Numbered from the stretch's first letter, positions 8,722 to 51,929 are shown. The stretch is DNA of 64,000 bases from a bacterium CG_4_9_14_3_um_filter_65_15 (GCA_002790835.1 PFVX01000056.1:24508-88507); one strand, 5' to 3'. A program made the numbers and translations. Notes: generated by a model from the sequence alone, not told the origin.

Positions 8722-9909
8722 ATGCCGGACAATAACCTGAAGGTGCTATTTTTGGAACCATTTGACACCGGATCCCACCGGGCGTTCCGGGAGGGATTGG
8801 AGGCCTGGTCCCGGCACCGGATTTCCTGCCTGACCCTGCCGGGAAGGTTCTGGAAGTGGCGGATGCGCGGAGCCGCCGCCTGGTTCGCAGACAAGATCAA
8901 CGGCGGGGATTTCGGCCATACCGATGTGCTGCTGGTCACCGGGTTCCTCAACGTCGCCGACCTGCGGGGCCTGCTCAGGCCGCCGCTGGACCGAGTGCCC
9001 ATCCTGCTGTACATGCACGAGAACCAGCTCACCTATCCTCTGAGTCCGCACGAGGAATTCGATTTCCATTTCGGGTTCACCAACATCATCAGCGCCCTGG
9101 CGGCCGATCAGGTGGTCTTCAATTCCCACTACCACCGGGACCTTTTCCTGGAGGCCATTCCGGGGTTCCTGAACAAGATGCCCGAGTCCGTCCCGCGGGG
9201 CGTGCCCGGTCGCATCGCCGAGCGCAGCGGCGTGCTGGCGGTGGGGCTGGAACGGCCCCCCCTGCCCGACGATGCCTACGCCCTCTTCCGGGGAGGCCTC
9301 TGCGATGCGTCGGCCGGACCACCGTGGCCGCGGGCGGGCCGCCATCGCATCCTGTGGAACCATCGCTGGGAATTCGATAAGCGTCCGGGGGATTTCGCCG
9401 CGGCGGTGGCGACCTTGCTGGACCGCGGGCTGGATTTCGAGGTGGCCCTGTTGGGGGATCCTGCGGGAAACGAAGAGGTTTTTGAACCCTTGCGCCGGAG
9501 GTTGGGCAACCGACTGACGGCCTGGGGTTTTCTCCCGGACCGTTCGCAGTATGCGGCTCACCTTGCGGCGTCGGATATCGTGGTGTCGTGCGCCGACCAG
9601 GAATATTTCGGCATCGCCGTGGCCGAGGCCGTCCACGCCGGATGCTACCCGGTTCTGCCCCGGCGCCAGGTCTATCCCTCGCTGTATGGCTCCGCCTGCT
9701 CGGGAAGGCATTTCTACGGTGACCAGGACGAATTCGTCGCCTTGCTTGCCAGCCTGCTGACCACCGACGATTGCGGCCACGTCTGCAGCCTCGATGGGGA
9801 AGTGGATTCCTGTTGCTGGTCCCGCATCGCTCCGAAGTATGATAGATTGCTCGACGTCGTCGGATGCTCCCCGAATCGGAGCGCGGCGGGGGAGGTGGTC
9901 GATGGGTAA
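8722..9909 (+). CDS. Glycosyltransferase with N-terminal DUF3524 (QTMAN/GTDC1-like, tRNA-queuosine mannosyltransferase-type) domain plus GT4 C-terminal domain
   Basis: N-terminus KVLFLEPFDTGSHRAF...WKWRMRG is characteristic of the DUF3524 family. A C-terminal GT4 signature follows (EYFGIAVAEAVHAGCYPVLP). Confidence 0.7.
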   Translation: MPDNNLKVLFLEPFDTGSHRAFREGLEAWSRHRISCLTLPGRFWKWRMRGAAAWFADKINGGDFGHTDVLLVTGFLNVADLRGLLRPPLDRVPILLYMHENQLTYPLSPHEEFDFHFGFTNIISALAADQVVFNSHYHRDLFLEAIPGFLNKMPESVPRGVPGRIAERSGVLAVGLERPPLPDDAYALFRGGLCDASAGPPWPRAGRHRILWNHRWEFDKRPGDFAAAVATLLDRGLDFEVALLGDPAGNEEVFEPLRRRLGNRLTAWGFLPDRSQYAAHLAASDIVVSCADQEYFGIAVAEAVHAGCYPVLPRRQVYPSLYGSACSGRHFYGDQDEFVALLASLLTTDDCGHVCSLDGEVDSCCWSRIAPKYDRLLDVVGCSPNRSAAGEVVDG

Positions 9910-10717
9910 GCTGCGGCCCATGCGGGGTTGTCTGCTCGATGTCGAAGGGGTCCTGGTCCGCAACAAGGCCTACGAGCCGGTGTGCGGGGCGGTGGAATGG
10001 ATGGCCCGCCTGGGGCGATCGCAAATGCCGTTTTGCCTGGTGACCAACAACACCACCGACACTCCGGCCGAGCTTCTGGAGCGTCTCGCCGCCGCCGGTT
10101 TCGACCTGGCGCCCGAGAACCTTGTGGGCGCCCTGGAACTGGGAACCGAGCTCTTGCGCGCCCGCAGTTTGCGGCGGATCTGCTGGCTGGGCGTCCCCCG
10201 CCTGCGGGAATACTGGCAGGAGGCGGGATTCGAGCTGACCGGGGGCGGGGATTGCGAGGCCGTGGTCATAGGGGTCAACCCCGAGCTGTGCATCGCGGAC
10301 CTCGAGGATGTTCTGCCGGCTGTCCTGGATCGCGGCGTGGATGTCGTCTGCCTGCACCGCAACCTTTTTTACCTCGACGCCCTGGATCGGCGCCGCATGG
10401 GGCCGGGGTGCTGGTCCGCCGCCCTGGAGGCCCTGGAGGGGCGCGGCCGGATGGTGATCGTCGGCAAACCGGACCCCCGCATCTATCGTGCGGCCCTGAA
10501 AAGAATTGGCGTGGGTGCCTCGGATACTCTATTTATCTCCGATGACCCTGTTGCCGACCTGGTGACCGCCGGACGGCTGGGAATGCGCACCGTGTTCGTC
10601 CTTTCGGGCAAGCACGCCGATCATGAAATCCTGGGTCGCATGGACCAGGACGACTGGCCTGACGTCATCTGTGGCGGTTTGGCCGATGTGAACCTTGACC
10701 AAGAGGATGCTTCCTGA
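9902..10717 (+). CDS. HAD-superfamily hydrolase, subfamily IIA (NagD-like sugar/nucleotide phosphatase)
   Basis: Motif I LLDVEGVLV is a DxE variant of the DxD motif. Also ...VTNNT and a C-terminal ...GKPDP...FISDD...GMRTVFVLSG. The ATG at 9902 overlaps the upstream TAA. Confidence 0.7.
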   Translation: MGKLRPMRGCLLDVEGVLVRNKAYEPVCGAVEWMARLGRSQMPFCLVTNNTTDTPAELLERLAAAGFDLAPENLVGALELGTELLRARSLRRICWLGVPRLREYWQEAGFELTGGGDCEAVVIGVNPELCIADLEDVLPAVLDRGVDVVCLHRNLFYLDALDRRRMGPGCWSAALEALEGRGRMVIVGKPDPRIYRAALKRIGVGASDTLFISDDPVADLVTAGRLGMRTVFVLSGKHADHEILGRMDQDDWPDVICGGLADVNLDQEDAS

Positions 10718-11601
10718 TGTCGGAAACCCCCGTTGCCGCACCCGCCAAGCCCCGGCGCAATCCCGCGCTGGCCCAGCAGATGGTGAACCATACCCTGAGT
10801 ACCTGGGATCTGGCGCAGCGACGAGCGGGCAGGCCGGAGGACGAGCGGAGCTTTCTCATCACCATGCGGGCCCACCAGCGCCTGGTCTCATCCTTTGAAC
10901 GGGAACGGGGGATTCCCCAGGCCTCGCGCAGCCGTTTCCTGTTGCGAGGGGACGCGCGGGGAAGCTGCCTGTTGATCCATGGGATCTCCACCGGCCCCGG
11001 CGACCTGGAGGAACTGGGCAACCATCTCCACGAAGGCGGATTCGACGTCTACATCATGCGCCTGCCCGATTTTGGCCGCGACGGTGTGACGATCAGCGAT
11101 AATTCCTGGGAATCCTACCTGAACCAGGTGCAGGGATGTTATCGCCTGCTCGCCTCGGGACCGGGCAAGGTCCATCTGGTCGGACTGGGCTACGGTTCCA
11201 CCTTGGCCCTGCTGCTGGCCAAGAACGAGAGGCCGGGCTCGCTGACCCTGCTGGCTCCCGCCCTGATCGCCCGGGAATCCCTGATCCAGAGGATCATGAT
11301 CCGCCTGCGGATGCACCGCATCGGGTTCCTGCGCAGGCGGCTGGGTTGGAATGTCGACCTGGTCGAGGGCATGGATCGCGCCCGGGGAATTGCCGGGAAT
11401 ATCAAGGTGCCGATTTTTGCCGCCCAGTGCCAAGACGATGAGCGGGCCTCACCCGATTCCCTGCGGTTCCTGCAGCGGAAGGCGCGCCATCGGGCGTCGC
11501 TGTTCCAGCTTTTTCCCGAAGGGGGGCACAGTATCCTCGGCTCCCACGGGGACGGTGCCCTTTATGCGGGAATCACGGATTTCATCTGCGCCGGAGGCTG
11601 A
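10717..11601 (+). CDS. Alpha/beta-fold hydrolase (esterase/lipase-like)
   Basis: Alpha/beta-hydrolase-like layout: LLIHGISTGPGD..., nucleophile-elbow-like VGLGYGSTLALLLA, and C-terminal ...GGHSILG. The start overlaps the HAD stop (TGATG). Confidence 0.6.
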   Translation: MSETPVAAPAKPRRNPALAQQMVNHTLSTWDLAQRRAGRPEDERSFLITMRAHQRLVSSFERERGIPQASRSRFLLRGDARGSCLLIHGISTGPGDLEELGNHLHEGGFDVYIMRLPDFGRDGVTISDNSWESYLNQVQGCYRLLASGPGKVHLVGLGYGSTLALLLAKNERPGSLTLLAPALIARESLIQRIMIRLRMHRIGFLRRRLGWNVDLVEGMDRARGIAGNIKVPIFAAQCQDDERASPDSLRFLQRKARHRASLFQLFPEGGHSILGSHGDGALYAGITDFICAGG

Positions 11602-11607
11602 CCGGCC

Positions 11608-12396
11608 TCAAAGATCCAGCGTTCGGCGGTCGATTCCCGCTTGCTGGGCCAGGTTGAGGGCACGCTGCCTGTGGGCCTGCGAAGGGCTCCGCCGGAACCG
11701 GTTCAAGGCGTCCAGGAAGCGGTCCTGAGCCGCAGACCGGTCATCATCCCGATCCGGGTAGTCCTGGGTGGACTCGGGGCTATCCGTCACCAGGGCCACC
11801 AGTTGACGTTCGCTCAAGCGGGCGCCCAGATCCCAACGGCCGCGCCCCAGGGTTTCCAGCACCTGAACGTATTCCGCGAAGTGACGCGCCACCCTGGCTG
11901 CGGTGGCCGCCAGGGGGACCGGCTGCCTGCCGTGCTCCAGCAGGGCCGCCGCCGCTTCGTAGCAGGCCCGTCCACAGACCATGTCCCGCCGATGGCCATC
12001 TTCCCGGGTCATGCCCCACAGGCCGGCTCGCCTGCGCCGGTCCTCGCCCCTGCCGAATAAACCCAGGTTCAACAATCGCTGCTCGCCTTGTTCCAGGTAC
12101 CAGCGCGCCCGCGCCTGACGACCCAGGGTCTTGGACGGGGGTTGCCATTGGGGCATGGAGCCGAAGAGGGCCCCCGATTCGTTGTCCAGCCGCGCGGTCC
12201 GGGTCAGCAGATCGGCCAGGTAGATGTTGACGTCCTCGTCGTTTTCTTCGGCCCCGGTGGGGAATGTCGATTTTGCCCGGGCCTCGAGCAACTCCTCCAG
12301 GAAGAAAAACGACAGCGGTCGAGGGGTGGACCAGTCGGGGAACAAGGGCCGGAAAACGGGCTCCTGTTGGCGGGCACGGGGGCGGATTGCGGGCAT
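11608..12396 (-). CDS. Hypothetical protein
   Basis: ORF with an SD-like AAAGGA upstream of the second ATG. No recognisable motifs. Confidence 0.4.
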   Translation of the reverse strand: MPAIRPRARQQEPVFRPLFPDWSTPRPLSFFFLEELLEARAKSTFPTGAEENDEDVNIYLADLLTRTARLDNESGALFGSMPQWQPPSKTLGRQARARWYLEQGEQRLLNLGLFGRGEDRRRRAGLWGMTREDGHRRDMVCGRACYEAAAALLEHGRQPVPLAATAARVARHFAEYVQVLETLGRGRWDLGARLSERQLVALVTDSPESTQDYPDRDDDRSAAQDRFLDALNRFRRSPSQAHRQRALNLAQQAGIDRRTLDL

Positions 12397-12751
12397 GGAT
12401 CCATTCCTTTCATTGCCGTTCAGCAATCAAATAGCAGGGAACGTGCCGACTTGAATGGGAAAATATCTTTTTAATTTACTTAAAATAAACGAGTTACCAG
12501 TAACCCAAAATCTCGGTGTCTCGGGCGTCCGCTCAGGTGGCTGATATCTGCACAGCGGGAATTGTTGGTTTTTTTGCTTTGGTTCGGCAGAAAACTGTCG
12601 AAAACCATCTCGACGTGGTGCGGAGGCCTGGAGGCCGCGGCCTTGTCCATAGGGGTTCCTCGCATGGGACGTCAGCGTTCTTGAAGCGATGGGAACCAGC
12701 AGCGGATGGAAGCGGGCCGATGGCCCCTCTCGAACGGGAAAGGATGCGGGC

Positions 12752-14671
12752 ATGAGCCAACGCAAGCCGATGTCAGGCAAGGCCGGGAAATCGGATCGAA
12801 AGGCCGGTGGCAAATCCAGGGGCAGGAAGCGGTCCCAGCAGGAAGGCTTCTCTGACTTCATGGACCTGGCCGAGGATGAGGATCCGGGTATGCCCGATGT
12901 TCCGGCCCCCGCTGCGACCGCTGGTGACGGCGGTACCGACACCGCCCCCAACAAACGGGGACCCGCTCGCATCGTCGTGACCGATCTTCATGGCCCGGCC
13001 TGGGCCTGGGGCCTGTGGCCAGCGGTCTGCACCCTGGTGGTCGGCGGGGCCATGGCCAGTGCCCTGCGGTTTCTTTACCACGGCCAATGGAACGTGCTGT
13101 GGGATTATTCAGGTCTGACGAATCTGCAAGGCCTGCTCGACCTCAACGCCTACCCGCAGAATGTCTTTCTGGCGGTGGTCATCATCGCGATCCTGCTGCT
13201 GGTCATGGTGGGTTACCGCCTCAGCAGCATCATCGGGGATCTGCAACGGCGAACCGTCGCCCAGGGAGAACTGTTGGGCCGACTGACGACTTTGCGTTTC
13301 GACAACCAGGCGGCCTGGCAGGACCCCCTGTTCAAGATGAACCCCAACGTCGAAACCTTCACCGCCGATCTCCTGGGCGCCTGGCGTCACCAGGCAGCCC
13401 GCATGGATCGTATGGCAGGCTTGGAGGGTGAGTGCCACCGCCTGGAGAAGGCGCTGAGCGAGGATTCCCGCGACGACCTGGCCGGGAACTTCTCGATCCC
13501 GGTGGTGAGTATGATCGCCGATGAGGTTCTGCAGCTGTTCGACGGCCGGGATGCGGCCATGGAGGACCAGGAGAGCCACCAGGCGAAATTGGGAAGCAGG
13601 GGCCATGACCTGATGGCGGACGTTCAGGATGCCCGCGGCTGGCAGCGCTACACCCAGGATCAACTGAACATGCAGGGCGATGCCGTGCTCAAAGCCAGCG
13701 CTCACCTCAACTCCGCAGGCACTCAGTTGGCCAAGGACCCCCGCTTCAGCTGGAAGCCGGAGGACGTGCTCGCTTTGCTGGCGGATCTCCGGGTGCAGCT
13801 TCAGGGCCGGGGCGCATCCGTCGCTCAACCCAAGGCGGACGGGGGCGCGGATTCGGACCTGCTGGATCGCCTCTCCAAGTTGAGTTTCCAGATCGGCATG
13901 GAAGTCGCCCGGTTGGGTAACCGCGGCGAACGCCTGGCGCCCATGGCCCAGACCCTGGAAGAGGTGGCCAAGGCCGTCCGGGCCCAGGGCATGGGTGGCG
14001 GAGCGCCCGGGGTCGTGCCCGCAAGCCTGACCAAACGACTGCAGGAGCAGATTTCCGCGTTCGAAAAAGCGGCCAAGCGTCCGGAGCGTCATTTGCCGAC
14101 ACTGGTGGTCAAGTTGGGCCAAACCGCCCGGGATGCCGCGGAAAACCTGGGCAAGATCGCCGACAGCTTCGAACCCCAGTACGAGCGCCTGGGTCGCATG
14201 GGCCAGGCTTGTGCCGAGTTGACCGGGGTGGAATTCGACGCCTCCCAGGCCATCGATTCCTCCGCCGGCGAACTGGAACTGAGCAATTACGATCCTTTCC
14301 TGCGGCAAGAGCCGGAGGAGGACATTCCCGTCATCGATCCTTTCCTCGAAAGATCCGACAACCTGACCGTGACCGAGGGCGGACTGGACCCGTTCGCCAT
14401 CTCCAACAACGTCTTGCCCGGCAGCGAGGATGAGTATGCCCAGGCTGCGGCGCCGGCATTTTCCCAGCCGAGCGAAACCGGGCTTCCTGACTCCGGGCAG
14501 AAGGTGTATGATCTTGCGGAATTCGGTGCCGTGAAATTGTCGGCGGATTCCCCCGCCGGCAGGGAAACGGTCCACGACCTGTCGGACTTCGGTGCGGTGC
14601 CCCTGGACCGCGCTGTGGGCGACGACAGGGTCTACGACCTGAGTGAATTCGGAGCGCGGCGCCTGGACTGA
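12752..14671 (+). CDS. Hypothetical membrane-anchored coiled-coil protein with C-terminal tandem short motifs
   Basis: Basic/acidic N-terminus, two predicted TM helices (WAWGLWPAVCTLVVGGAMA and FLAVVIIAILLLVMVGY), then a long helical region. Near the C-terminus there are 3x DPF motifs and 3x (V/Y)(Y/H)DLxEFGAxxL repeats. A possible alternative start is at 12689. Confidence 0.5.
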   Translation: MSQRKPMSGKAGKSDRKAGGKSRGRKRSQQEGFSDFMDLAEDEDPGMPDVPAPAATAGDGGTDTAPNKRGPARIVVTDLHGPAWAWGLWPAVCTLVVGGAMASALRFLYHGQWNVLWDYSGLTNLQGLLDLNAYPQNVFLAVVIIAILLLVMVGYRLSSIIGDLQRRTVAQGELLGRLTTLRFDNQAAWQDPLFKMNPNVETFTADLLGAWRHQAARMDRMAGLEGECHRLEKALSEDSRDDLAGNFSIPVVSMIADEVLQLFDGRDAAMEDQESHQAKLGSRGHDLMADVQDARGWQRYTQDQLNMQGDAVLKASAHLNSAGTQLAKDPRFSWKPEDVLALLADLRVQLQGRGASVAQPKADGGADSDLLDRLSKLSFQIGMEVARLGNRGERLAPMAQTLEEVAKAVRAQGMGGGAPGVVPASLTKRLQEQISAFEKAAKRPERHLPTLVVKLGQTARDAAENLGKIADSFEPQYERLGRMGQACAELTGVEFDASQAIDSSAGELELSNYDPFLRQEPEEDIPVIDPFLERSDNLTVTEGGLDPFAISNNVLPGSEDEYAQAAAPAFSQPSETGLPDSGQKVYDLAEFGAVKLSADSPAGRETVHDLSDFGAVPLDRAVGDDRVYDLSEFGARRLD

Positions 14672-37394: not shown

Positions 37395-38465
37395 ATGGCA
37401 CAGCCCAGCCTCGAAGAGGAGCATTTCTTGACCCTGGACCGGAAGCCCGTTCGTATCGACCCGCGCACACCCTGGCTGGCGGACGTGCGGCGCATGCTGT
37501 CGCCCATGGCCGGGGTGACGGACCGGCCCTTCCGGGACATCTGCCGTCGTTTCGGCGCGGACATGGGCTTCTGTGAATTCGCCTCCGCCAGCGGCTTGAC
37601 CTACGGGGGCGAGGCCACCTGGCGCCTGGTCGACACCGACGGGGAACAGGGGCTGGTGGGCGTGCAGATTTTCGGCAGCAACCCCGAGCACATGGCATCG
37701 GCTTCGCGGCTGCTGGTCGACAAGCGGATGGACGTGCTGGACATCAATTTCGGCTGCCCCGCCAAGAAGGTGGTCCGCAAGTGCGGCGGCAGCGCCCTGC
37801 TCGCCGACCTGCCGTTGCTGGAGCAGATCGTGCGGGCGGTCGTCGCCAACAGCTGCGTTCCCGTGAGCGCGAAGATCCGCACCGGATGGGACGAGGACTC
37901 GGTCAACTATCGCGAGGTGGGTCGGTTGTTGCAGGAACTGGGCATGGTCTGGGTCACCATCCACGGTCGCACCCGCGCCCAGAAGTTCTCCGGGCAGGCC
38001 GACTGGGGCCGGATCGCGGACCTCGTCGAGGCCCTGGATATTCCGGTGATCGGCAACGGGGACGTGACCGACGCCGAATCCTACCGGGACCTGGTCCGGC
38101 AGACCCGCTGCCACGCGGTGATGATCGGCCGCGGCGCCATCGGAACCCCCTGGTTGTTCGCAGGTATGCGGGCGGTCGACGACGGGCAACCACCGTCGCA
38201 GGTGGAGTTTGCCGAGATGTGCTCCGTCACCTGCGATCACATCCGCGGCGAGGTCGCCGCGCGCGGTGAACAACAGGGCTGCCTGGTGGTGCGCAAGCAC
38301 ATCTCGCGCACCTTTCGCGGTTACCCGGGTGCCGCTTCCCTGCGGCGCAGGCTCTACGCCACCGTCGAAAGCGCCGAGATGATCGCCATCCTCACCGCCG
38401 CGGCTGCCGCGGGCCGGCCCGAATCCGACGCAGAGAATCTGACGCAACCGGAGGCGAATCGATGA
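37395..38465 (+). CDS. dus: tRNA-dihydrouridine synthase (DusB-like)
   Basis: LSPMAGVTDRPFR...NFGCPAKKV...IHGRTR...GNGD are Dus family motifs, with a C-terminal helical domain. Confidence 0.8.
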   Translation: MAQPSLEEEHFLTLDRKPVRIDPRTPWLADVRRMLSPMAGVTDRPFRDICRRFGADMGFCEFASASGLTYGGEATWRLVDTDGEQGLVGVQIFGSNPEHMASASRLLVDKRMDVLDINFGCPAKKVVRKCGGSALLADLPLLEQIVRAVVANSCVPVSAKIRTGWDEDSVNYREVGRLLQELGMVWVTIHGRTRAQKFSGQADWGRIADLVEALDIPVIGNGDVTDAESYRDLVRQTRCHAVMIGRGAIGTPWLFAGMRAVDDGQPPSQVEFAEMCSVTCDHIRGEVAARGEQQGCLVVRKHISRTFRGYPGAASLRRRLYATVESAEMIAILTAAAAAGRPESDAENLTQPEANR

Positions 38466-48380: not shown

Positions 48381-49523
48381 TCAAGCTGACGTTGAGGCGG
48401 CTTCCTGTTCCAGGAACTGACCGACCAGGGCTCCGATGCGATGGGCGTCGGCAAAGGGAAGGGCCGCATGGATGGGAAGGGTCAAGACTTCCCGTCCCGC
48501 GCGCTCCGCCTCCGCCATGGACCCGCTGGTCCGACAATACACGGCAAGTTCATGATGATGCAAGGGGGGGTCGTAATAAACACCGGTGTCGATGCCTTCG
48601 CGATCCAGCAGCATGCGCAGGTCGTCGCGGTTGCGGCAGCGCACCCAGTACTGGTGGTAAGTGACCTTCATGCCCCGACCGCCGTTGGGGGTCTGCAGCC
48701 GGTTGGTCGCCGGGATATAGCCGTCGTAGATCTCGGCGACCTTGTCGCGGTCGGCCTGTTCGGCGGCGAAACGCTCGCGGCGGATGCGGATCACCATGGC
48801 CTGCACTTCGTCCAGTCGGCTGTTCCAACCGGTGTACAGGTGGCCGTTCATGCGCACGGGCAGGTGTCCCCTGATCCGGCGGATGAGTTCGGCGTCCTCG
48901 GCGCTGCGGCAGAAGATCATGCCGCCGTCCCCGATTCCCGGCAGGTTCTTGGTGGGATAGAAACTGAGGGTGCTCATGCGGGCGTACGATCCGATGGGCC
49001 GCCCGTCGTAGAACGTGCCCCAGGCCTGGGCCATGTCCGCGATGACCTGGATCCCGTGCTCGGCGGCCACCGCCATGATGGGGTCCATGTCGCAGGGCGC
49101 GCCGAAGATCGGGACCGGCAGGAAGGCCCGGGTCTTCGGCGTGATGGCGTCGGCCAGCAGCCCGGAATCCAGGTTCAGATCCTGGGGCTTGATGTCGACG
49201 AAGACCGGCACGGCATCCAGCAGGATGATCGCTTCCATGGTGGCGTCGAAGGTGTAGGGGGTGGTGATGACCTCGTCACCCGGGCGGACTCCGGCCACTG
49301 ACAGGGCGAGGAACAGGGCGGATGAGCCGGATGCCACACCGACCGCCGCCGGGACTCCACACTCTTCGGCGAGCTTCTCTTCCAGGAGCCGCACTTCCTC
49401 GCCGAGGATGTACTGACCGGACATCAGAAAGCGTTCGAAGCGTTGCAGGATCTCGTCCTTGCAGGGCAGCATGGGGGTGACGAGATCGTACCGCCCGATA
49501 CGTTTGGGCACGGAACTGCTCAT
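48381..49523 (-). CDS. DegT/DnrJ/EryC1/StrS-family PLP-dependent sugar aminotransferase (ArnB-like)
   Basis: ...LGEEVRLLEEKLAEECGV...GSSAL...FYPTKNL... includes the PLP-lysine context. SD GGAAGAG. Confidence 0.8.
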   Translation of the reverse strand: MSSSVPKRIGRYDLVTPMLPCKDEILQRFERFLMSGQYILGEEVRLLEEKLAEECGVPAAVGVASGSSALFLALSVAGVRPGDEVITTPYTFDATMEAIILLDAVPVFVDIKPQDLNLDSGLLADAITPKTRAFLPVPIFGAPCDMDPIMAVAAEHGIQVIADMAQAWGTFYDGRPIGSYARMSTLSFYPTKNLPGIGDGGMIFCRSAEDAELIRRIRGHLPVRMNGHLYTGWNSRLDEVQAMVIRIRRERFAAEQADRDKVAEIYDGYIPATNRLQTPNGGRGMKVTYHQYWVRCRNRDDLRMLLDREGIDTGVYYDPPLHHHELAVYCRTSGSMAEAERAGREVLTLPIHAALPFADAHRIGALVGQFLEQEAASTSA

Positions 49524-49566
49524 GGTTCTCTTCCAGTCTAGGAAGTCCGCCGCAGGGGCGGACTGG

Positions 49567-50892
49567 TCAGGATACTTCCGAAATGTGCGCAGCTCGGCCG
49601 AAGCAATCGTACTTGAATCCGAAACGCTCCAGGTGGGGACGATCATACACGTTCCGGCAGTCGAGAAAAGCATTTCCTGTCATGACCGATTTGACCCGGT
49701 CGAGGTCGAGTTGCCGGTACAGATTCCATTCCGTGGCCAGGATGGTGATTTCCGCCCCTTCGCACGCAGCGTACGGGGAGTCCGTGTAGACGAGGTCGGG
49801 ATGGAAAAACTTGAAGTTTTCCATGGCCGCAGGATCGTGGGCGCGGACGGTGCAACCGAGCTTCTTCAAGCCGTCGACCAGGGGCAGGGTGGCGCTGGAG
49901 CGGATGTCGTCGGTGTTGGGCTTGAAGGCCAGACCCAACATGGCCACGGTCTTGCCCTGGAGGCCGCCGGTCAACCGCTCCGCCTTGGCCAGAGCGCGCT
50001 CGGGCAACGCCGCGTTGACCGCGATGGCGGCGCGGACAACCGACATGTCGTGGTCGTGGCTGTTGGCGATGTGGACGATGGCGTTGGTGTCCTTGGGCAG
50101 ACAGCTCCCGCCGAAGCCCAGCCCCGCATGCAGGAATTTGGGGCCGATACGCTTGTCCAGACCCATGGCCTTGGCCACGTGGGATACGTCGGCCCCCACG
50201 GTCTCGGCCAGGGCGGCCATTTCGTTGATGAAGGAGATCTTGACGGCCAGGAAGCTGTTGGATGCGTACTTGATCAGCTCGGCGGTCTCGATGCCGGTCT
50301 TGACGATGGGCGTATCCAGGAGAAAGAGCGGTCGATAGAGTTCGCGCAGGAGCTCTTCGGCGTGGTCGCTCTCGACTCCGATGACGACCCGGTCGGGGCG
50401 CATGAAGTCCTCGATGCTGGACCCTTCGCGCAGGAACTCCGGATTGCTGGCCATGTCGAACGTCACGTCGTGCTTGATCTGCCCCTGGATGACCTTGCGG
50501 AGCTGGCGGTTGGTGCCCACCGGAACCGTACTCTTGGTGACGATGACCTTGTGGTCGTCGAGCAGGCTGCCGATCTCCTCGCCCACCTTCATCACGAACT
50601 GCAGATCGGCTTCGCCCGAGGGGGACATGGGGGTCTGCACGGCGATGAAGACCACGTCGGCGTCCTTCATGCCCTCGGCGAGCTCGGTGGTGAAGAACAG
50701 CAGTTGTCCGTCCACGTTTTTCAGCACCAGGCGATCCAGCCCCGGTTCGTAGAACGGGATGCCGCCCTTGCGCAGGCTTTCGATGCGCTCGGCGTTGATG
50801 TCCACACAGGTCACGGTGTGCCCGAAGTCGGCCATGCAAGCCCCTGAAACCAGGCCCACGTAGCCCGTTCCCACCATGCAGATGCGGATCAT
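49567..50892 (-). CDS. ugd: UDP-glucose 6-dehydrogenase (nucleotide-sugar dehydrogenase)
   Basis: MIRICMVGTGYVGLVSGACMA Rossmann motif and a catalytic Cys context GFGGSCLPKD. Length is 441 aa. The long 5' extension in the track is spurious. Confidence 0.85.
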   Translation of the reverse strand: MIRICMVGTGYVGLVSGACMADFGHTVTCVDINAERIESLRKGGIPFYEPGLDRLVLKNVDGQLLFFTTELAEGMKDADVVFIAVQTPMSPSGEADLQFVMKVGEEIGSLLDDHKVIVTKSTVPVGTNRQLRKVIQGQIKHDVTFDMASNPEFLREGSSIEDFMRPDRVVIGVESDHAEELLRELYRPLFLLDTPIVKTGIETAELIKYASNSFLAVKISFINEMAALAETVGADVSHVAKAMGLDKRIGPKFLHAGLGFGGSCLPKDTNAIVHIANSHDHDMSVVRAAIAVNAALPERALAKAERLTGGLQGKTVAMLGLAFKPNTDDIRSSATLPLVDGLKKLGCTVRAHDPAAMENFKFFHPDLVYTDSPYAACEGAEITILATEWNLYRQLDLDRVKSVMTGNAFLDCRNVYDRPHLERFGFKYDCFGRAAHISEVS

Positions 50893-51929
50893 GTCGTTTC
50901 CTTTCGCGCGAGGTTCAAGACGTCGGTCAAAGAGTCGTCGATGCTCCACTCGGGCTCCCAGCCCGTGCAGGAACGGATTTTGGTGTTGTCTCCCACCAGG
51001 ATGGGGACATCCGAGGGTCGCATGCGCGCCGCATCGGATTCCACTGTAATCGGACATTTGGCCTGGGCCAACAGGAGATCCAACCCCTGGCGGATGGTCA
51101 GGCCCTGGCCGGAGCACACATGGTACACCTCGCCGGGGGTTCCTTCCTTGATCAGGGCGCGGTAGGCGGTCACCACGTCCCGCACGTCCAGGAAGTCCCG
51201 GACCGCGTCCAGGTTGCCGACTTTCACCAGGGCCTGGCCGCTCCCGCGCTCGGCGGCGGCGATCTGCTGCGCGAAGGCGGGGAAGACGAAACGCGTGTCC
51301 TGGCCGGGACCGATGTGGCTGAAGGAGCGGGTCATGATCACGGGCAGATCGTAGGACCGGACGTACTGGCGGCCGAGCAGGGTCTGGGCGGCCTTGCTCA
51401 CCCCGTAGGGGGAGATGGGCTGGAGGGGCGTGTCTTCCCGCAGGGGATAGGCTTCGGCGGGTTGGGGCCCGTATTCCTCCGCCGAACCGATCATCAAGAC
51501 GGCCGGTCTGTCGCTGACCGGCATCCGGCGTATGGCTTCCAGGAGGTTCAGGGTGCCCAGGACGTTGGTCTGCAGGGTGGCGGCCGGCTCGCGAAAGGAG
51601 ACCGCCGCCGAGCTCTGGGCGGCCAGGTGGTAGACGGTGGCCGGTCGCAGGCGCTCCAGCACCGCGACCAAGCCGGCCGCATCGGCCAGGTCCATCTCGA
51701 TGTGGGCCACGTCGCCGTCGGGGGTGTGGAGGCAGACGGCGCCGGGAAAGCGGGGATCGTCCTCCTCGGTCCGGCCGCCGGCCAGGGGCGACGTCAGCCC
51801 CAGGCTGCACACGGGCAACCCTGCCCGTTGCAGGGAAGCGGTAAGGTGCCGGCCGACGAAGCCTCGGGCTCCGGTTACCAGGGTCCAGGGCAGGTGGGGG
51901 GAGGATGTGGGTTGGTTCACAGGCGTCAT
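50889..51929 (-). CDS. NAD-dependent nucleotide-sugar epimerase/dehydratase (SDR family)
   Basis: TGARGFVGRHL Rossmann motif and YGVSK (YxxxK). Stop/start overlaps with ugd and the CoA-binding gene (ATGA). Confidence 0.75.
   Translation of the reverse strand: MTPVNQPTSSPHLPWTLVTGARGFVGRHLTASLQRAGLPVCSLGLTSPLAGGRTEEDDPRFPGAVCLHTPDGDVAHIEMDLADAAGLVAVLERLRPATVYHLAAQSSAAVSFREPAATLQTNVLGTLNLLEAIRRMPVSDRPAVLMIGSAEEYGPQPAEAYPLREDTPLQPISPYGVSKAAQTLLGRQYVRSYDLPVIMTRSFSHIGPGQDTRFVFPAFAQQIAAAERGSGQALVKVGNLDAVRDFLDVRDVVTAYRALIKEGTPGEVYHVCSGQGLTIRQGLDLLLAQAKCPITVESDAARMRPSDVPILVGDNTKIRSCTGWEPEWSIDDSLTDVLNLARKETT

What the first reader, a model, noticed from the sequence alone, without database searches (positions are those of the whole stretch)
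8722..11601. Bacterial homologue of the eukaryotic queuosine mannosyltransferase (DUF3524/QTMAN-like + GT4) in a translationally coupled operon with a HAD-IIA hydrolase and an alpha/beta hydrolase, 3.5 kb from queF/queG
Seen in sequence:
- The N-terminus KVLFLEPFDTGSHRAF...WKWRMRG plus a GT4 C-terminus.
- Start/stop overlaps at 9902-9909 and 10715-10719 indicate one operon.
- The HAD motif I reads DVEGV (DxE, not DxD).

Established knowledge: the DUF3524 N-domain defines GTDC1/QTMAN, the enzyme that makes mannosyl-queuosine in vertebrate tRNA-Asp. Glycosylated queuosine has not been described in bacteria, and bacterial DUF3524 proteins are uncharacterised.

Inference: here it sits in a tRNA-Q neighbourhood (queG, an orphan radical SAM, queF). 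The operon could install a sugar on Q-tRNA or another 7-deazaguanine. Alternatively it could act on a glycolipid, with the HAD and alpha/beta hydrolases processing donor or product.
Basis: partly seen in the sequence, partly recalled or inferred. Interest (0 to 1): 0.7.

Follow-up and report, generated by a model that had tools for sequence, protein, structure and literature searches.

The report
Bacterial relative of queuosine sugar-transferase
A bacterial gene that matches, end to end, the animal enzyme that puts mannose on the tRNA base queuosine sits in a three-gene operon, which hints (but does not show) that sugar-decorated queuosine also exists in bacteria.

Summary
Window 8722-9909(+) encodes a 395-aa protein with a full-length QTMAN_N (PF12038) domain (199.5 bits) and a GT4-type C-domain. 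It is collinear with human QTMAN (E 9e-47). 48 positions are conserved across 79 bacterial and 5 vertebrate sequences. It is translationally coupled to a HAD-IIA phosphatase (motif I D-x-E in 29/29 homologues) and an alpha/beta-fold protein.

Corrections:
- The alpha/beta protein has Gly at the nucleophile position and is probably not a hydrolase.
- The "orphan" radical SAM is an AmmeMemoRadiSam enzyme, not a que gene.
- queF and queG are real. They lie in other transcription units behind a 3.3-kb protease gene. The linkage is confined to one clade in which the whole ~20-kb block is syntenic.

The family is large (896 clusters at 50% identity) and has no fixed neighbours. A scan of 174 loci with all aaRS types and Q genes found AspRS(ND)/GatCAB, HisRS/GatB, TyrRS/SmpB and queG next to the gene in separate lineages, but also ProRS. 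This is suggestive only (p about 0.03-0.06).

Best reading (about 0.5): a bacterial tRNA-queuosine glycosyltransferase. No bacterial glycosyl-Q is reported. The idea can be tested by tRNA LC-MS on cultured carriers.

The parts
8582..8721 (.). Divergent intergenic region between the S8 protease gene (minus strand) and the GT operon (plus strand). It is the presumed promoter region of the operon (inferred).
   Evidence: Sequence read: an AT-richer stretch at about 8640-8680. The only sigma-70-like match is on the minus strand at 8673-8645. No Rfam element, including no preQ1 riboswitch, was found.
8722..9909 (+). QTMAN-like GT-B glycosyltransferase, 395 aa. The QTMAN_N acceptor domain covers residues 7-176 and the GT4 donor domain about 205-380.
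   Evidence: - Pfam QTMAN_N scores 199.5 bits over the full profile length, plus Glycos_transf_1.
- BLASTP against human QTMAN (P0121) gives E 9e-47 and is collinear.
- 48 positions are at least 97% conserved over bacteria and vertebrates. They include H19, W44/W46/R47/R49, H99-E100-Q102, N134-S135, H214-R215-W216-E217-D219-K220 and E294/E302.
- The AF2 model has pLDDT 79.4 and pTM 0.77 and shows two Rossmann-like halves.
- The Foldseek top hits are PimA, HepE, GlgM, MshA and SPS.
9902..9909 (+). ATGGGTAA start/stop overlap between the GT and the HAD gene (translational coupling).
   Evidence: Read directly. A 4-bp overlap sits at the same junction in L082.
9902..10717 (+). HAD-IIA (LHPP/HDHD2-like) phosphatase, 271 aa, with motif I D13-V-E15-G-V.
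   Evidence: - TIGR01460 scores 108.8 bits against a cut-off of 100.15. Hydrolase_6 and Hydrolase_like also match.
- The best PDB match is human LHPP 2x4d, E 4e-20.
- D13, E15, S/T48-N-N-T-T, K189 and D214-D215 are invariant or nearly invariant in 29 homologues.
10715..10719 (+). TGATG stop/start overlap between the HAD gene and the alpha/beta-fold gene.
   Evidence: Read directly.
10717..11601 (+). Alpha/beta-hydrolase-fold protein, 294 aa, of the Est30/monoacylglycerol-lipase type. It lacks the nucleophile Ser (G158 in GLGYGS) but keeps His271 and Asp240/241. It is a probable pseudo-enzyme or partner subunit.
   Evidence: - Hydrolase_4 scores 45.6 bits, with Abhydrolase_6 and Abhydrolase_1 also matching.
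- Aligned to lipase 5xks, GLSMG lines up with GLGYG.
- The nucleophile column is Gly in 24 and Ser in 10 of 34 homologues. His is present in 33/33.
- The family has only 48 database hits, all at least 43% identical, many on contigs of the same lengths as GT hits.
2672..5306 (.). Context only, not part of the operon: queG (2672-3745, +), the AmmeMemoRadiSam radical SAM gene (3682-4737, +) and queF type II (4746-5306, -).
   Evidence: These genes are conserved upstream of the GT in about 20 of 21 clade-A loci with enough flank, but at a variable distance.
5303..8581 (-). Context only: S8 subtilase with a T9SS C-terminal sorting domain. It is divergent from the GT operon, and its stop overlaps the queF start.
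   Evidence: It is present next to the GT in all 35 clade-A loci.

Best explanation
The 395-aa protein is a cytoplasmic, retaining-type GT-B glycosyltransferase of the QTMAN (GTDC1) family.

Proposed mechanism (inferred by homology):
- The C-terminal Rossmann half binds an NDP-hexose through R215/K220 (diphosphate) and E294/E302 (the E-x7-E motif). By analogy with QTMAN and PimA the donor would be GDP-mannose, but the donor is not determined.
- The N-terminal QTMAN_N half presents the acceptor. I take this to be the cyclopentenediol of queuosine at position 34 of a GUN-anticodon tRNA (Asp, or Asn/His/Tyr).
- The product would be a hexosyl-queuosine.

The host makes Q de novo, since queF and queG are present.

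In this clade (Krumholzibacteriota-like) the enzyme is co-translated with two lineage-specific partners. One is an LHPP-like HAD-IIA phosphatase with a D-x-E catalytic motif. The other is an alpha/beta-fold protein that has lost its nucleophile in the window's sub-clade. Their roles are unknown. I assume they are accessory (donor or by-product turnover, or a non-catalytic subunit), because the rest of the family, including the proven vertebrate enzyme, works without them.

Shown here: family membership, motif conservation, operon structure and phyletic spread.
Inferred: the acceptor, the donor, and the roles of the partners.
For: - Family membership: full-length QTMAN_N at 199.5 bits plus a GT4 domain.
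- Homology to the proven enzyme: collinear with human QTMAN, E 9e-47. The only large gap is the roughly 100-aa vertebrate linker.
- Acceptor domain: N-domain identity to human (33%) is as high as C-domain identity (31%). 48 positions are at least 97% conserved across 34 clade-A, 45 clade-B and 5 vertebrate sequences, and about half lie in the N-domain. In GT-B enzymes the N-domain is the half expected to bind the acceptor.
- Donor site: the query's R215 and K220 align with an Arg (in 'GRY') and a Lys (in 'RKG') of PimA in the HMMER alignment; I identify these from memory as PimA's GDP-Man-binding R196/K202. The fold is GT-B.
- Strong constraint: clade-A median identity is 63%, compared with about 52-55% for the protease, HAD and ABH neighbours.
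- Spread: a stand-alone gene with variable neighbours in more than 50 clades and 896 clusters. Nothing with the N-domain was found in phages, plasmids or IMG/VR.
- The substrate pathway is present in the host: queF and queG.
- Independent tRNA-flavoured contexts:
  - gatC-gatA-gatB-aspS(ND, 494 bits)-GT on one strand with a gap of about 130-160 bp, in a Spirochaetia MAG.
  - hisS ... gatB-GT with a 16-25 bp gap in L096.
  - tyrS-smpB divergent from tRNA-Leu-GT in 10 metagenomic loci.
  - queG (330 bits) 4.8 kb from a 35%-identical GT.
- Systematic scan of 174 loci with all E. coli aaRS types: 3 of the 4-5 lineage-level aaRS neighbours within 3 kb charge Q-tRNAs.
Against: - No glycosyl-Q has been reported from any bacterium. 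In the papers held, one describes the sugar-modified Q derivatives as found in vertebrate tRNAs and another describes manQ as unique to mammalian tRNA-Asp. The phyla concerned have not been examined.
- The context signal is weak and was defined post hoc. My binomial estimate gives p about 0.03-0.06. ProRS is adjacent in L099 and GlnRS lies 6.4 kb away in L084. The tRNA gene next to the GT in the tyrS lineage is tRNA-Leu, which does not carry Q.
- The que linkage in the window's clade cannot be told apart from inherited synteny.
- Tight coupling to a phosphatase recalls the GT + HAD pairs that make small-molecule glycosides.
- Other lineages have methyltransferase, DegT/UGDH or GH20 neighbours.
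- At 31-35% identity, acceptor specificity of GT4 enzymes is not safely transferable.
- The nearest solved structures all act on small molecules.
Confidence: 0.5

Rival explanations
1. Small-molecule glycoside pathway. The GT glycosylates a phosphorylated small acceptor, such as a cyclitol or sugar phosphate. The co-translated HAD then removes the phosphate, as in sucrose-P, trehalose-P and mannosylfructose-P synthase/phosphatase pairs, or MshA plus a phosphatase. The alpha/beta protein trims or binds the product.
For: - The GT-HAD-ABH genes are translationally coupled. HAD is present in 28 and ABH in 33 of 35 clade-A loci.
- The HAD catalytic motifs are intact.
- The nearest solved folds are small-molecule GT4 enzymes: PimA, MshA, GlgM, SPS, BshA and SenB.
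- Methyltransferase, DegT/UGDH or GH20 genes adjoin the GT in other lineages.
Against: - HAD is missing in 7 clade-A loci. It was not found next to the GT in 45 clade-B loci, 80 metagenomic loci or 11 representative contexts.
- The HAD is an LHPP-like type IIA. From memory, the known synthase/phosphatase pairs use IIB-type phosphatases.
- The alpha/beta protein lacks its nucleophile in 24/34 homologues.
- The acceptor domain is conserved with an enzyme proven to act on tRNA.
Confidence: 0.2
2. Cell-envelope glycolipid or polysaccharide glycosyltransferase. This is the generic GT4 role and matches the automatic annotation 'glycosyltransferase involved in cell wall biosynthesis'.
For: - JGI names for many homologues.
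- A GT4 C-domain.
- Some contexts have an envelope flavour: L092 next to LpxD-like, Poly_export and PMT_2 genes; L153/L146 next to rodA; L096 and the tyrS lineage next to DegT/UGDH.
Against: - No N-terminal hydrophobic segment. The first Rossmann strand starts at residue 7.
- The gene is not embedded in glycan gene clusters in most of about 170 loci.
- Conservation is unusually high for an envelope GT.
- The family-specific N-domain is shared with QTMAN, the vertebrate tRNA-modifying enzyme.
Confidence: 0.1
3. Glycosylation of a different nucleic-acid or nucleotide acceptor. Candidates are a Q precursor in tRNA (oQ, preQ1), free queuosine or its 5'-phosphate (which would give the NagD/LHPP-like phosphatase a role), or a 7-deazaguanine in DNA.
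For: - The same homology arguments as for Q-tRNA apply.
- queG (oQ to Q) is the que gene seen twice near the GT.
- From memory, HAD-IIA enzymes of the NagD type act on nucleotides.
Against: - No homologue carrying the N-domain was found in phages, plasmids or IMG/VR, where DNA 7-deazaguanine systems live.
- No dpdA or tgt-like gene lies nearby.
- Nothing distinguishes these acceptors from Q34 itself.
Confidence: 0.07

Closest known systems
Vertebrate QTMAN (GTDC1), tRNA-queuosine alpha-mannosyltransferase
   Same: - Same two-domain architecture (QTMAN_N + GT4), collinear over the whole length, E 9e-47.
- Shared motifs: W-x-W-R-x-R, HENQ, FNS, W-x-HRWE-x-DK-x-P and E-x7-E.
- No other Pfam domain.
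   Different: - 31-35% identity only.
- The bacterial proteins lack the roughly 100-aa low-complexity interdomain linker.
- Clade A has an insertion (YRGGxCDxxxGPxWPRG) and a clade-specific Cys/His set: C290, C326, H330, C351, H353, C355 and C365, plus C194 which vertebrate sequences also carry.
- The gene is encoded in an operon with a HAD phosphatase and a Ser-less alpha/beta protein.
- Activity is untested.
PimA / MshA / sucrose-phosphate synthase (retaining GT4, GT-B fold)
   Same: - Same fold: Foldseek E 1e-10 to 1e-9, TM about 0.6.
- Same donor-site residues: the query's R215/K220 align with an Arg and a Lys of PimA in the sequence alignment (identified from memory as PimA R196/K202).
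- These are the best sequence hits in the PDB (PimA, E 4e-6).
   Different: - 14-18% identity.
- The N-domain is a separate Pfam family.
- These enzymes take lipid, cyclitol-phosphate or sugar-phosphate acceptors.
GluQRS (YadB), bacterial glutamyl-queuosine synthetase
   Same: From established knowledge, this is the only known bacterial enzyme that decorates the cyclopentenediol of Q34 (in tRNA-Asp). It would therefore be the functional analogue of what is proposed here.
   Different: - An unrelated fold (a class I aaRS paralogue).
- It adds glutamate through an ester bond, not a sugar.
- It was not looked for in these genomes.
Human LHPP / HDHD2 (HAD-IIA)
   Same: - Best solved relative of the second gene (E 4e-20).
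- It also carries a non-Asp residue at the Asp+2 position (DISGV against DVEGV).
   Different: - About 30% identity.
- Glu rather than Ser at +2.
- No known link to glycosyltransferases.

Membership tests
QTMAN / GTDC1 family (PF12038 + GT4) | Full-length QTMAN_N (DUF3524) N-terminal domain scoring above the Pfam gathering score | tested here: met
   199.5 bits against a cut-off of 25. Residues 7-176 cover profile positions 1-168 of 168.
QTMAN / GTDC1 family (PF12038 + GT4) | C-terminal GT-B/GT4 donor domain with an E-x7-E motif and an Arg/Lys diphosphate pair | tested here: met
   - Glycos_transf_1 scores 32.7 bits against a cut-off of 26.4.
- E294, E302, R215 and K220 are at least 97% conserved.
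- The GT-B fold is confirmed.
QTMAN / GTDC1 family (PF12038 + GT4) | End-to-end collinear homology with an experimentally characterised QTMAN | tested here: met
   BLASTP against P0121 (99% identical to the human sequence used as query; primate relatives are named 'tRNA-queuosine alpha-mannosyltransferase') gives E 9e-47. Query residues 6-377 align with subject residues 1-450.
QTMAN / GTDC1 family (PF12038 + GT4) | Transfer of mannose from GDP-Man to Q34 of tRNA-Asp | not testable with these tools
   This needs tRNA nucleoside LC-MS or an in vitro assay. No bacterial report was found in the held literature.
HAD-IIA phosphatases (TIGR01460) | Model score above the cut-off, and the four HAD motifs including the nucleophile Asp | tested here: met
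   108.8 bits against 100.15. D13, S/T48, K189 and D214-D215 are conserved in 29 homologues.
HAD-IIA phosphatases (TIGR01460) | Canonical D-x-D in motif I (Asp+2 as the general acid/base) | tested here: not met
   D-x-E in 29/29 homologues. The closest solved relative, LHPP, has D-x-S. From memory, enolase-phosphatase E1 is an active HAD with D-x-E, so activity remains plausible.
Alpha/beta serine hydrolases (Hydrolase_4, Est30/MGL type) | Alpha/beta-hydrolase fold | tested here: met
   Hydrolase_4 scores 45.6 bits, Abhydrolase_6 38.2 and Abhydrolase_1 36.7. PDB hits are the lipase 5xks and the carboxylesterase 1tqh.
Alpha/beta serine hydrolases (Hydrolase_4, Est30/MGL type) | G-x-S-x-G nucleophile elbow with a catalytic Ser | tested here: not met
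   The window has GLGYG, with G158 at the nucleophile position aligned to the Ser of GLSMG in 5xks. The column is Gly in 24 and Ser in 10 of 34 homologues. The His and Asp are retained.
Queuosine biosynthesis gene cluster | Co-transcription or tight linkage with que genes, conserved across lineages | tested here: not met
   - The genes are on different strands and in different transcription units, separated by a 3.3-kb protease gene.
- The linkage is limited to clade A plus one other lineage, L086.
- No tgt, queA, queC, queD or queE lies near the GT in any of 174 loci.
GT + HAD 'synthase/phosphatase' two-step glycoside systems | The GT-phosphatase pairing is conserved wherever the GT occurs | tested here: not met
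   HAD is adjacent in 28/35 clade-A loci only. It is absent from the other 130 or so loci.

The most novel reading that the evidence does not exclude
Glycosylated queuosine is not an animal invention. Bacteria of many phyla (Krumholzibacteriota, Desulfobacterota, Spirochaetota, Nitrospinota and numerous uncultured marine lineages; about 900 clusters at 50% identity) would use QTMAN-type enzymes to put a sugar on Q34 of GUN-anticodon tRNAs. Vertebrate QTMAN would then descend from this bacterial family. In the window's clade the enzyme would have gained a Cys/His metal site and work as a module with a D-x-E HAD phosphatase and a catalytically dead alpha/beta-fold partner.
Probability: 0.45. Interest if true: 0.8.

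Novelty: new variant of a known kind. Interest (0 to 1): 0.55.

Why it matters
In the papers held, manQ and galQ are described only from vertebrates or mammals, and their enzymes were identified only in 2023. If the bacterial homologues act on Q-tRNA, three things follow:
- a new bacterial wobble-base modification would be added to the catalogue;
- the evolutionary origin of QTMAN would be explained;
- compact bacterial enzymes (no solved QTMAN structure was found in the PDB copy searched) would become available for structural and mechanistic work.

If they instead act on a small molecule, the family would show how an acceptor domain was recruited from metabolite to tRNA glycosylation.

Either outcome can be reached with one LC-MS experiment on a cultured carrier.

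Tried and rejected
- **Apparent GT-HAD fusion protein (P0289, 589 aa).** It looked like Rosetta-stone evidence. The junction is garbled, HAD motifs I and II are missing, and reading resumes in frame at '...PDDLVAAL'. I rejected it as a frameshift or assembly artefact.
- **Phage, plasmid and IMG/VR searches for homologues.** Only generic GT1 C-domain hits appeared, and none had the N-domain.
- **Rfam scan of the window** for a preQ1 riboswitch or other RNA, and a tRNA scan: nothing found.
- **tRNA genes in about 150 GT loci.** No Asp, Asn or Tyr tRNA is adjacent. One tRNA-His lies 3 kb away (L170). tRNA-Leu(CAG) lies directly upstream in the tyrS lineage.
- **Unbiased neighbour clustering in clade B and in the metagenomic set.** It found only sub-clade synteny (T2SS, YidD-like, TPR, FtsK, RNase J; ABC, Hsp20) apart from tyrS/smpB.
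- **Foldseek against AFDB50.** The library was not available.
- **The Cell 2023 QTMAN paper** is not held, so residues mutated there could not be compared.
- **Isoelectric point** (5.7; clade medians 5.9 and 7.1) is uninformative about RNA binding.
- **The idea that the radical SAM is QueE** was rejected. It is TIGR04337, AmmeMemoRadiSam.


Full report
**1. Observation**

The region holds three same-strand genes.
- The first, 8722-9909, encodes a 395-aa protein beginning MPDNNLKVLFLEPFDTGSHRAF...FWKWRMRG.
- The HAD start ATG (9902-9904) lies inside the last codons of the first gene, whose stop TAA is at 9907-9909.
- The HAD stop TGA (10715-10717) shares its A with the ATG of the third gene.

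Alignment with homologues supports the start codons 8722, 9902 and 10717 rather than the longer mechanical ORFs.

Pfam results:
- Protein 1: QTMAN_N (PF12038) at 199.5 bits over the whole 168-position profile, plus a GT1/GT4 C-domain.
- Protein 2: HAD-IIA. NCBIfam TIGR01460 scores 108.8 against a cut-off of 100.15.
- Protein 3: alpha/beta-hydrolase fold.

**2. Surroundings in the window**

Upstream genes:

| Gene | Coordinates | Evidence |
|---|---|---|
| queG | 2672-3745, + | QueG_DUF1730 + Fer4_16; TIGR00276 199.3 vs cut-off 200 |
| radical SAM | 3682-4737, + | AmmeMemoRadiSam-system enzyme, TIGR04337 334 bits |
| queF, type II | 4746-5306, - | TIGR03139 176 bits |
| S8 subtilase, 1092 aa | 5303-8581, - | T9SS sorting tail; stop overlaps the queF start |

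- The radical SAM is not a Q-pathway enzyme.
- The GT operon diverges from the protease gene across a 140-bp spacer.
- The que genes are real and show that the host makes Q de novo. They are not co-transcribed with the GT.
- No riboswitch or other Rfam element and no tRNA gene occurs in the 64 kb.
- The ORFs tested in the rest of the window are ordinary chromosomal genes: Dus, glycogen synthase, a ClC channel, M16 peptidase, pyrimidine genes and a DegT/UGDH pair.

**3. The glycosyltransferase and its family**

Comparison with the vertebrate enzyme:
- A search seeded with the human GTDC1 sequence returned a 99%-identical protein (P0121). It also returned primate and other vertebrate proteins named 'tRNA-queuosine alpha-mannosyltransferase'.
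- The window protein aligns with P0121 from residue 6 to 377 (E 9e-47). The only large gap is the roughly 100-residue vertebrate interdomain linker.
- N-domain identity is 33% and C-domain identity 31%.

Conservation in an alignment of 34 clade-A, 45 clade-B and 5 vertebrate sequences: 48 positions are at least 97% conserved. They include:
- E12, G17-S18-H19, W44, W46, R47, R49, Y97, H99-E100, Q102, Y105-P106, D114 and F133-N134-S135 in the acceptor half;
- W212, H214-R215-W216-E217, D219-K220, E294, F296-G297 and E302 in the donor half.

Structure:
- R215 and K220 align with an Arg and a Lys of PimA, which I identify from memory as its GDP-Man-binding R196 and K202.
- The AlphaFold model (pLDDT 79.4, pTM 0.77) has two Rossmann-like halves.
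- Its best solved neighbours are retaining GT4 enzymes: PimA, HepE, GlgM, MshA, sucrose-phosphate synthase, SenB and BshA.
- No solved QTMAN structure was found.

Size of the family:
- It has 2746 cluster representatives at E<=1e-3 and 896 at E<=1e-30 among 1.84 billion. These fall into more than 50 clades at about 42% identity.
- The window's clade (clade A) collapses to a single 50% cluster. It is very conserved internally (median 63%), compared with 40% to clade B and 31% to vertebrates.

**4. The two partners**

HAD:
- It keeps all catalytic motifs, but motif I is D-[IV]-E-G-V in 29 of 29 homologues.
- Its nearest solved relative is human LHPP (E 4e-20), which also departs from D-x-D with DISGV.
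- From memory, enolase-phosphatase E1 is an active HAD enzyme with D-x-E. I therefore treat the protein as a probable active phosphatase of unknown substrate.

Third protein:
- It aligns with thermostable monoacylglycerol lipase and Est30-type carboxylesterases. It has GLGYG where they have GLSMG.
- Across 34 homologues the nucleophile column is Gly in 24 and Ser in 10. The His (33/33) and the Asp-Asp (33/33) persist.
- The window copy is thus most likely not a serine hydrolase.
- The family is tiny: 48 database hits, all at least 43% identical, many on contigs whose lengths match those of GT hits. I did not check contig identity directly.

**5. Synteny**

Clade A, 35 species-level genomes, mostly Krumholzibacteriota MAGs:
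- The protease, GT, HAD (28/35) and alpha/beta gene (33/35) stay together.
- queF (20) and queG plus the rSAM (17) usually lie upstream.
- The unrelated downstream genes orf11608 (20), orf12689 (22) and the HD-GYP regulator (22) are conserved just as often.
- Conservation stops only upstream of queG.
- The queF-GT distance varies from 3.3 to 7.3 kb.
- L082, from a 3.8-Mb contig, shows the same order with 4-bp overlaps within the operon.

This is whole-block inherited synteny. It cannot by itself show a functional que-GT link.

Other sets:
- Clade B, 45 Desulfobacterota, Spirochaetota and Nitrospinaceae loci: no HAD, alpha/beta or que gene is nearby, and neighbour clustering finds only sub-clade synteny.
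- Eleven further cluster representatives: variable contexts including NfeD/FloA, GH20, methyltransferases and histidine kinases.

**6. Independent tRNA-flavoured contexts**

Several lineages place the GT beside genes of Q-tRNA metabolism:
- **Spirochaetia MAG (L066 = L084).** gatC-gatA-gatB, then non-discriminating aspartyl-tRNA(Asn) ligase (NF003483, 494 bits), then the GT. All are on one strand, with a gap of about 130-160 bp.
- **L096.** hisS, an acyltransferase, gatB, then the GT 16-25 bp downstream, followed by DegT and UGDH.
- **Ten metagenomic loci of one lineage.** A phosphodiesterase-tyrS (TIGR00234, 359 bits)-smpB unit diverges from the GT. In six of the ten, a tRNA-Leu(CAG) gene lies between smpB and the GT.
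- **L086/L087.** A GT only 35% identical to the window's, with bona fide queG (330 bits) 4.8 kb away.

To avoid cherry-picking, I fetched all E. coli K-12 aaRS genes and queA, tgt, queC, queD and queE. I then scanned all 174 GT loci (2.19 Mb) with them.
- Lineage-level aaRS neighbours within 3 kb are AspRS(ND), HisRS, TyrRS, ProRS (adjacent in L099) and a weak ArgRS-like fragment (L046).
- GlnRS lies 6.4 kb away in L084.
- No tgt, queA, queC, queD or queE was found anywhere.
- Three of four or five aaRS neighbours charge Q-tRNAs. With 4 of 20 aaRS types in that class, my binomial estimate is p about 0.03-0.06. The gene set was defined after seeing the data.

I count this as suggestive support, not proof.

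**7. Interpretation**

The most economical reading is that this is a bacterial member of the QTMAN family doing QTMAN-like chemistry. An NDP-hexose would sit in the C-domain, the Q34 cyclopentenediol of a GUN-anticodon tRNA in the conserved N-domain, and transfer would occur with retention.

Supporting points:
- The acceptor domain is as conserved as the donor domain.
- The gene has a stand-alone, housekeeping-like distribution.
- It is absent from mobile elements.
- The host has the Q pathway.
- Translation-related contexts recur.

The main rival is a small-molecule pathway in which the HAD dephosphorylates the glycosylated product. The tight operon favours it. It fails to explain why the HAD is dispensable in seven clade-A genomes and everywhere else, and why the third protein is catalytically degenerate.

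My confidences are about 0.5 for a Q-tRNA acceptor, 0.2 for a small molecule, 0.1 for an envelope glycoconjugate and 0.07 for another nucleotide or nucleic-acid acceptor.

**8. Novelty**

- Searches of the held literature for DUF3524, QTMAN or GTDC1 together with bacteria returned nothing on bacterial homologues.
- In the papers held, one describes sugar-modified Q as found in vertebrate tRNAs and another describes manQ as unique to mammalian tRNA-Asp.
- That bacterial DUF3524 proteins exist is already visible in public annotation ('DUF3524 domain-containing protein').

I therefore rate this a new variant of a known kind. It is a compact bacterial QTMAN homologue with lineage-specific partners and a possible metal site. 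Its activity remains to be shown.

Noticed in passing
window 10717-11601 (residue G158 of the third gene): The alpha/beta-fold partner has Gly at the nucleophile position (GLGYGS) and keeps His271 and Asp240/241. Sister sub-clades keep Ser (GFSFGG). This looks like a recently 'dead' esterase that is still under selection at 53-73% identity.
   Followed up: yes
window 8722-9909 (GT residues C194, C290, C326, H330, C351, H353, C355, C365): Seven Cys/His positions (C290, C326, H330, C351, H353, C355, C365) are conserved in 82-100% of clade-A GTs and are essentially absent from clade B and vertebrates. C194 is also conserved in clade A (82%) but is shared with vertebrate sequences (80%). They coincide with the low-pLDDT segments of the model (191-194, 321-330, 351-360). 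This may be a lineage-specific Zn or Fe-S site.
   Followed up: partly
window 3682-4737; L118 8312-9352; L146 3403-4557; L153 11934-12947: An AmmeMemoRadiSam-system radical SAM enzyme (TIGR04337, 334-348 bits) lies in the conserved block in clade A. In a separate lineage (rodA-GT-rSAM) it is the next gene downstream of the GT, after about 0.8 kb. No AMMECR1 or Memo partner was seen beside it. The system is uncharacterised and the recurrence is unexplained.
   Followed up: partly
L011 11334-12818: Where the HAD is missing, the alpha/beta gene lies in a 494-aa ORF. Its first roughly 200 residues are Gly/Arg/Asp repeats (GGRDGGRD...). This could be an RGG-like, RNA-binding-type extension or GC-rich read-through. 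It is unresolved.
   Followed up: no
L120, L142, L145, L154, L166, L167 (for example L145 9814-9898): In the tyrS-smpB lineage a tRNA-Leu(CAG) gene sits directly upstream of the GT on the same strand, 50-1170 bp away. This suggests possible co-transcription with a tRNA gene that does not carry Q.
   Followed up: partly
window 5303-8581 and 4746-5306: The S8 subtilase with a T9SS sorting tail ends in a 4-bp overlap with the queF start. This is an odd pairing of protease and preQ1 synthase. In other clade-A genomes the two are up to 3.7 kb apart, so the coupling is probably incidental.
   Followed up: partly
L096 11116-13677; L120, L142, L145 and L166 next to the GT; window 48381-51810: A DegT-type aminotransferase lies beside the GT in five loci, and a UDP-Glc/GDP-Man dehydrogenase follows it in L096. 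It might supply an unusual NDP-sugar donor. The window has such a pair 39 kb away, not linked to the GT.
   Followed up: no
L086 9134-9793; L090 1330-2067; L093 9185-10252: Class I SAM methyltransferases adjoin the GT in three unrelated representative contexts. One overlaps the GT stop by 4 bp. No family-level identification was possible beyond generic Methyltransf_11/23/25.
   Followed up: no
window 11608-12426(-) and 12689-14671(+): Two ORFs (272 and 660 aa) have no Pfam or NCBIfam match. They are conserved next to the operon in 20-22 clade-A loci, so they are real lineage-specific genes of unknown function.
   Followed up: no
window 37395-38465(+): A Dus-family tRNA-dihydrouridine synthase (264.6 bits). 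It is the only other tRNA-modification gene found among the ORFs tested in the rest of the window.
   Followed up: no
P0289 (database protein, 589 aa): This looks like a GT-HAD fusion but is a frameshifted read-through of the overlapping genes, because the HAD motif I/II region is garbled. It is a caution for anyone mining fusions in this family.
   Followed up: yes
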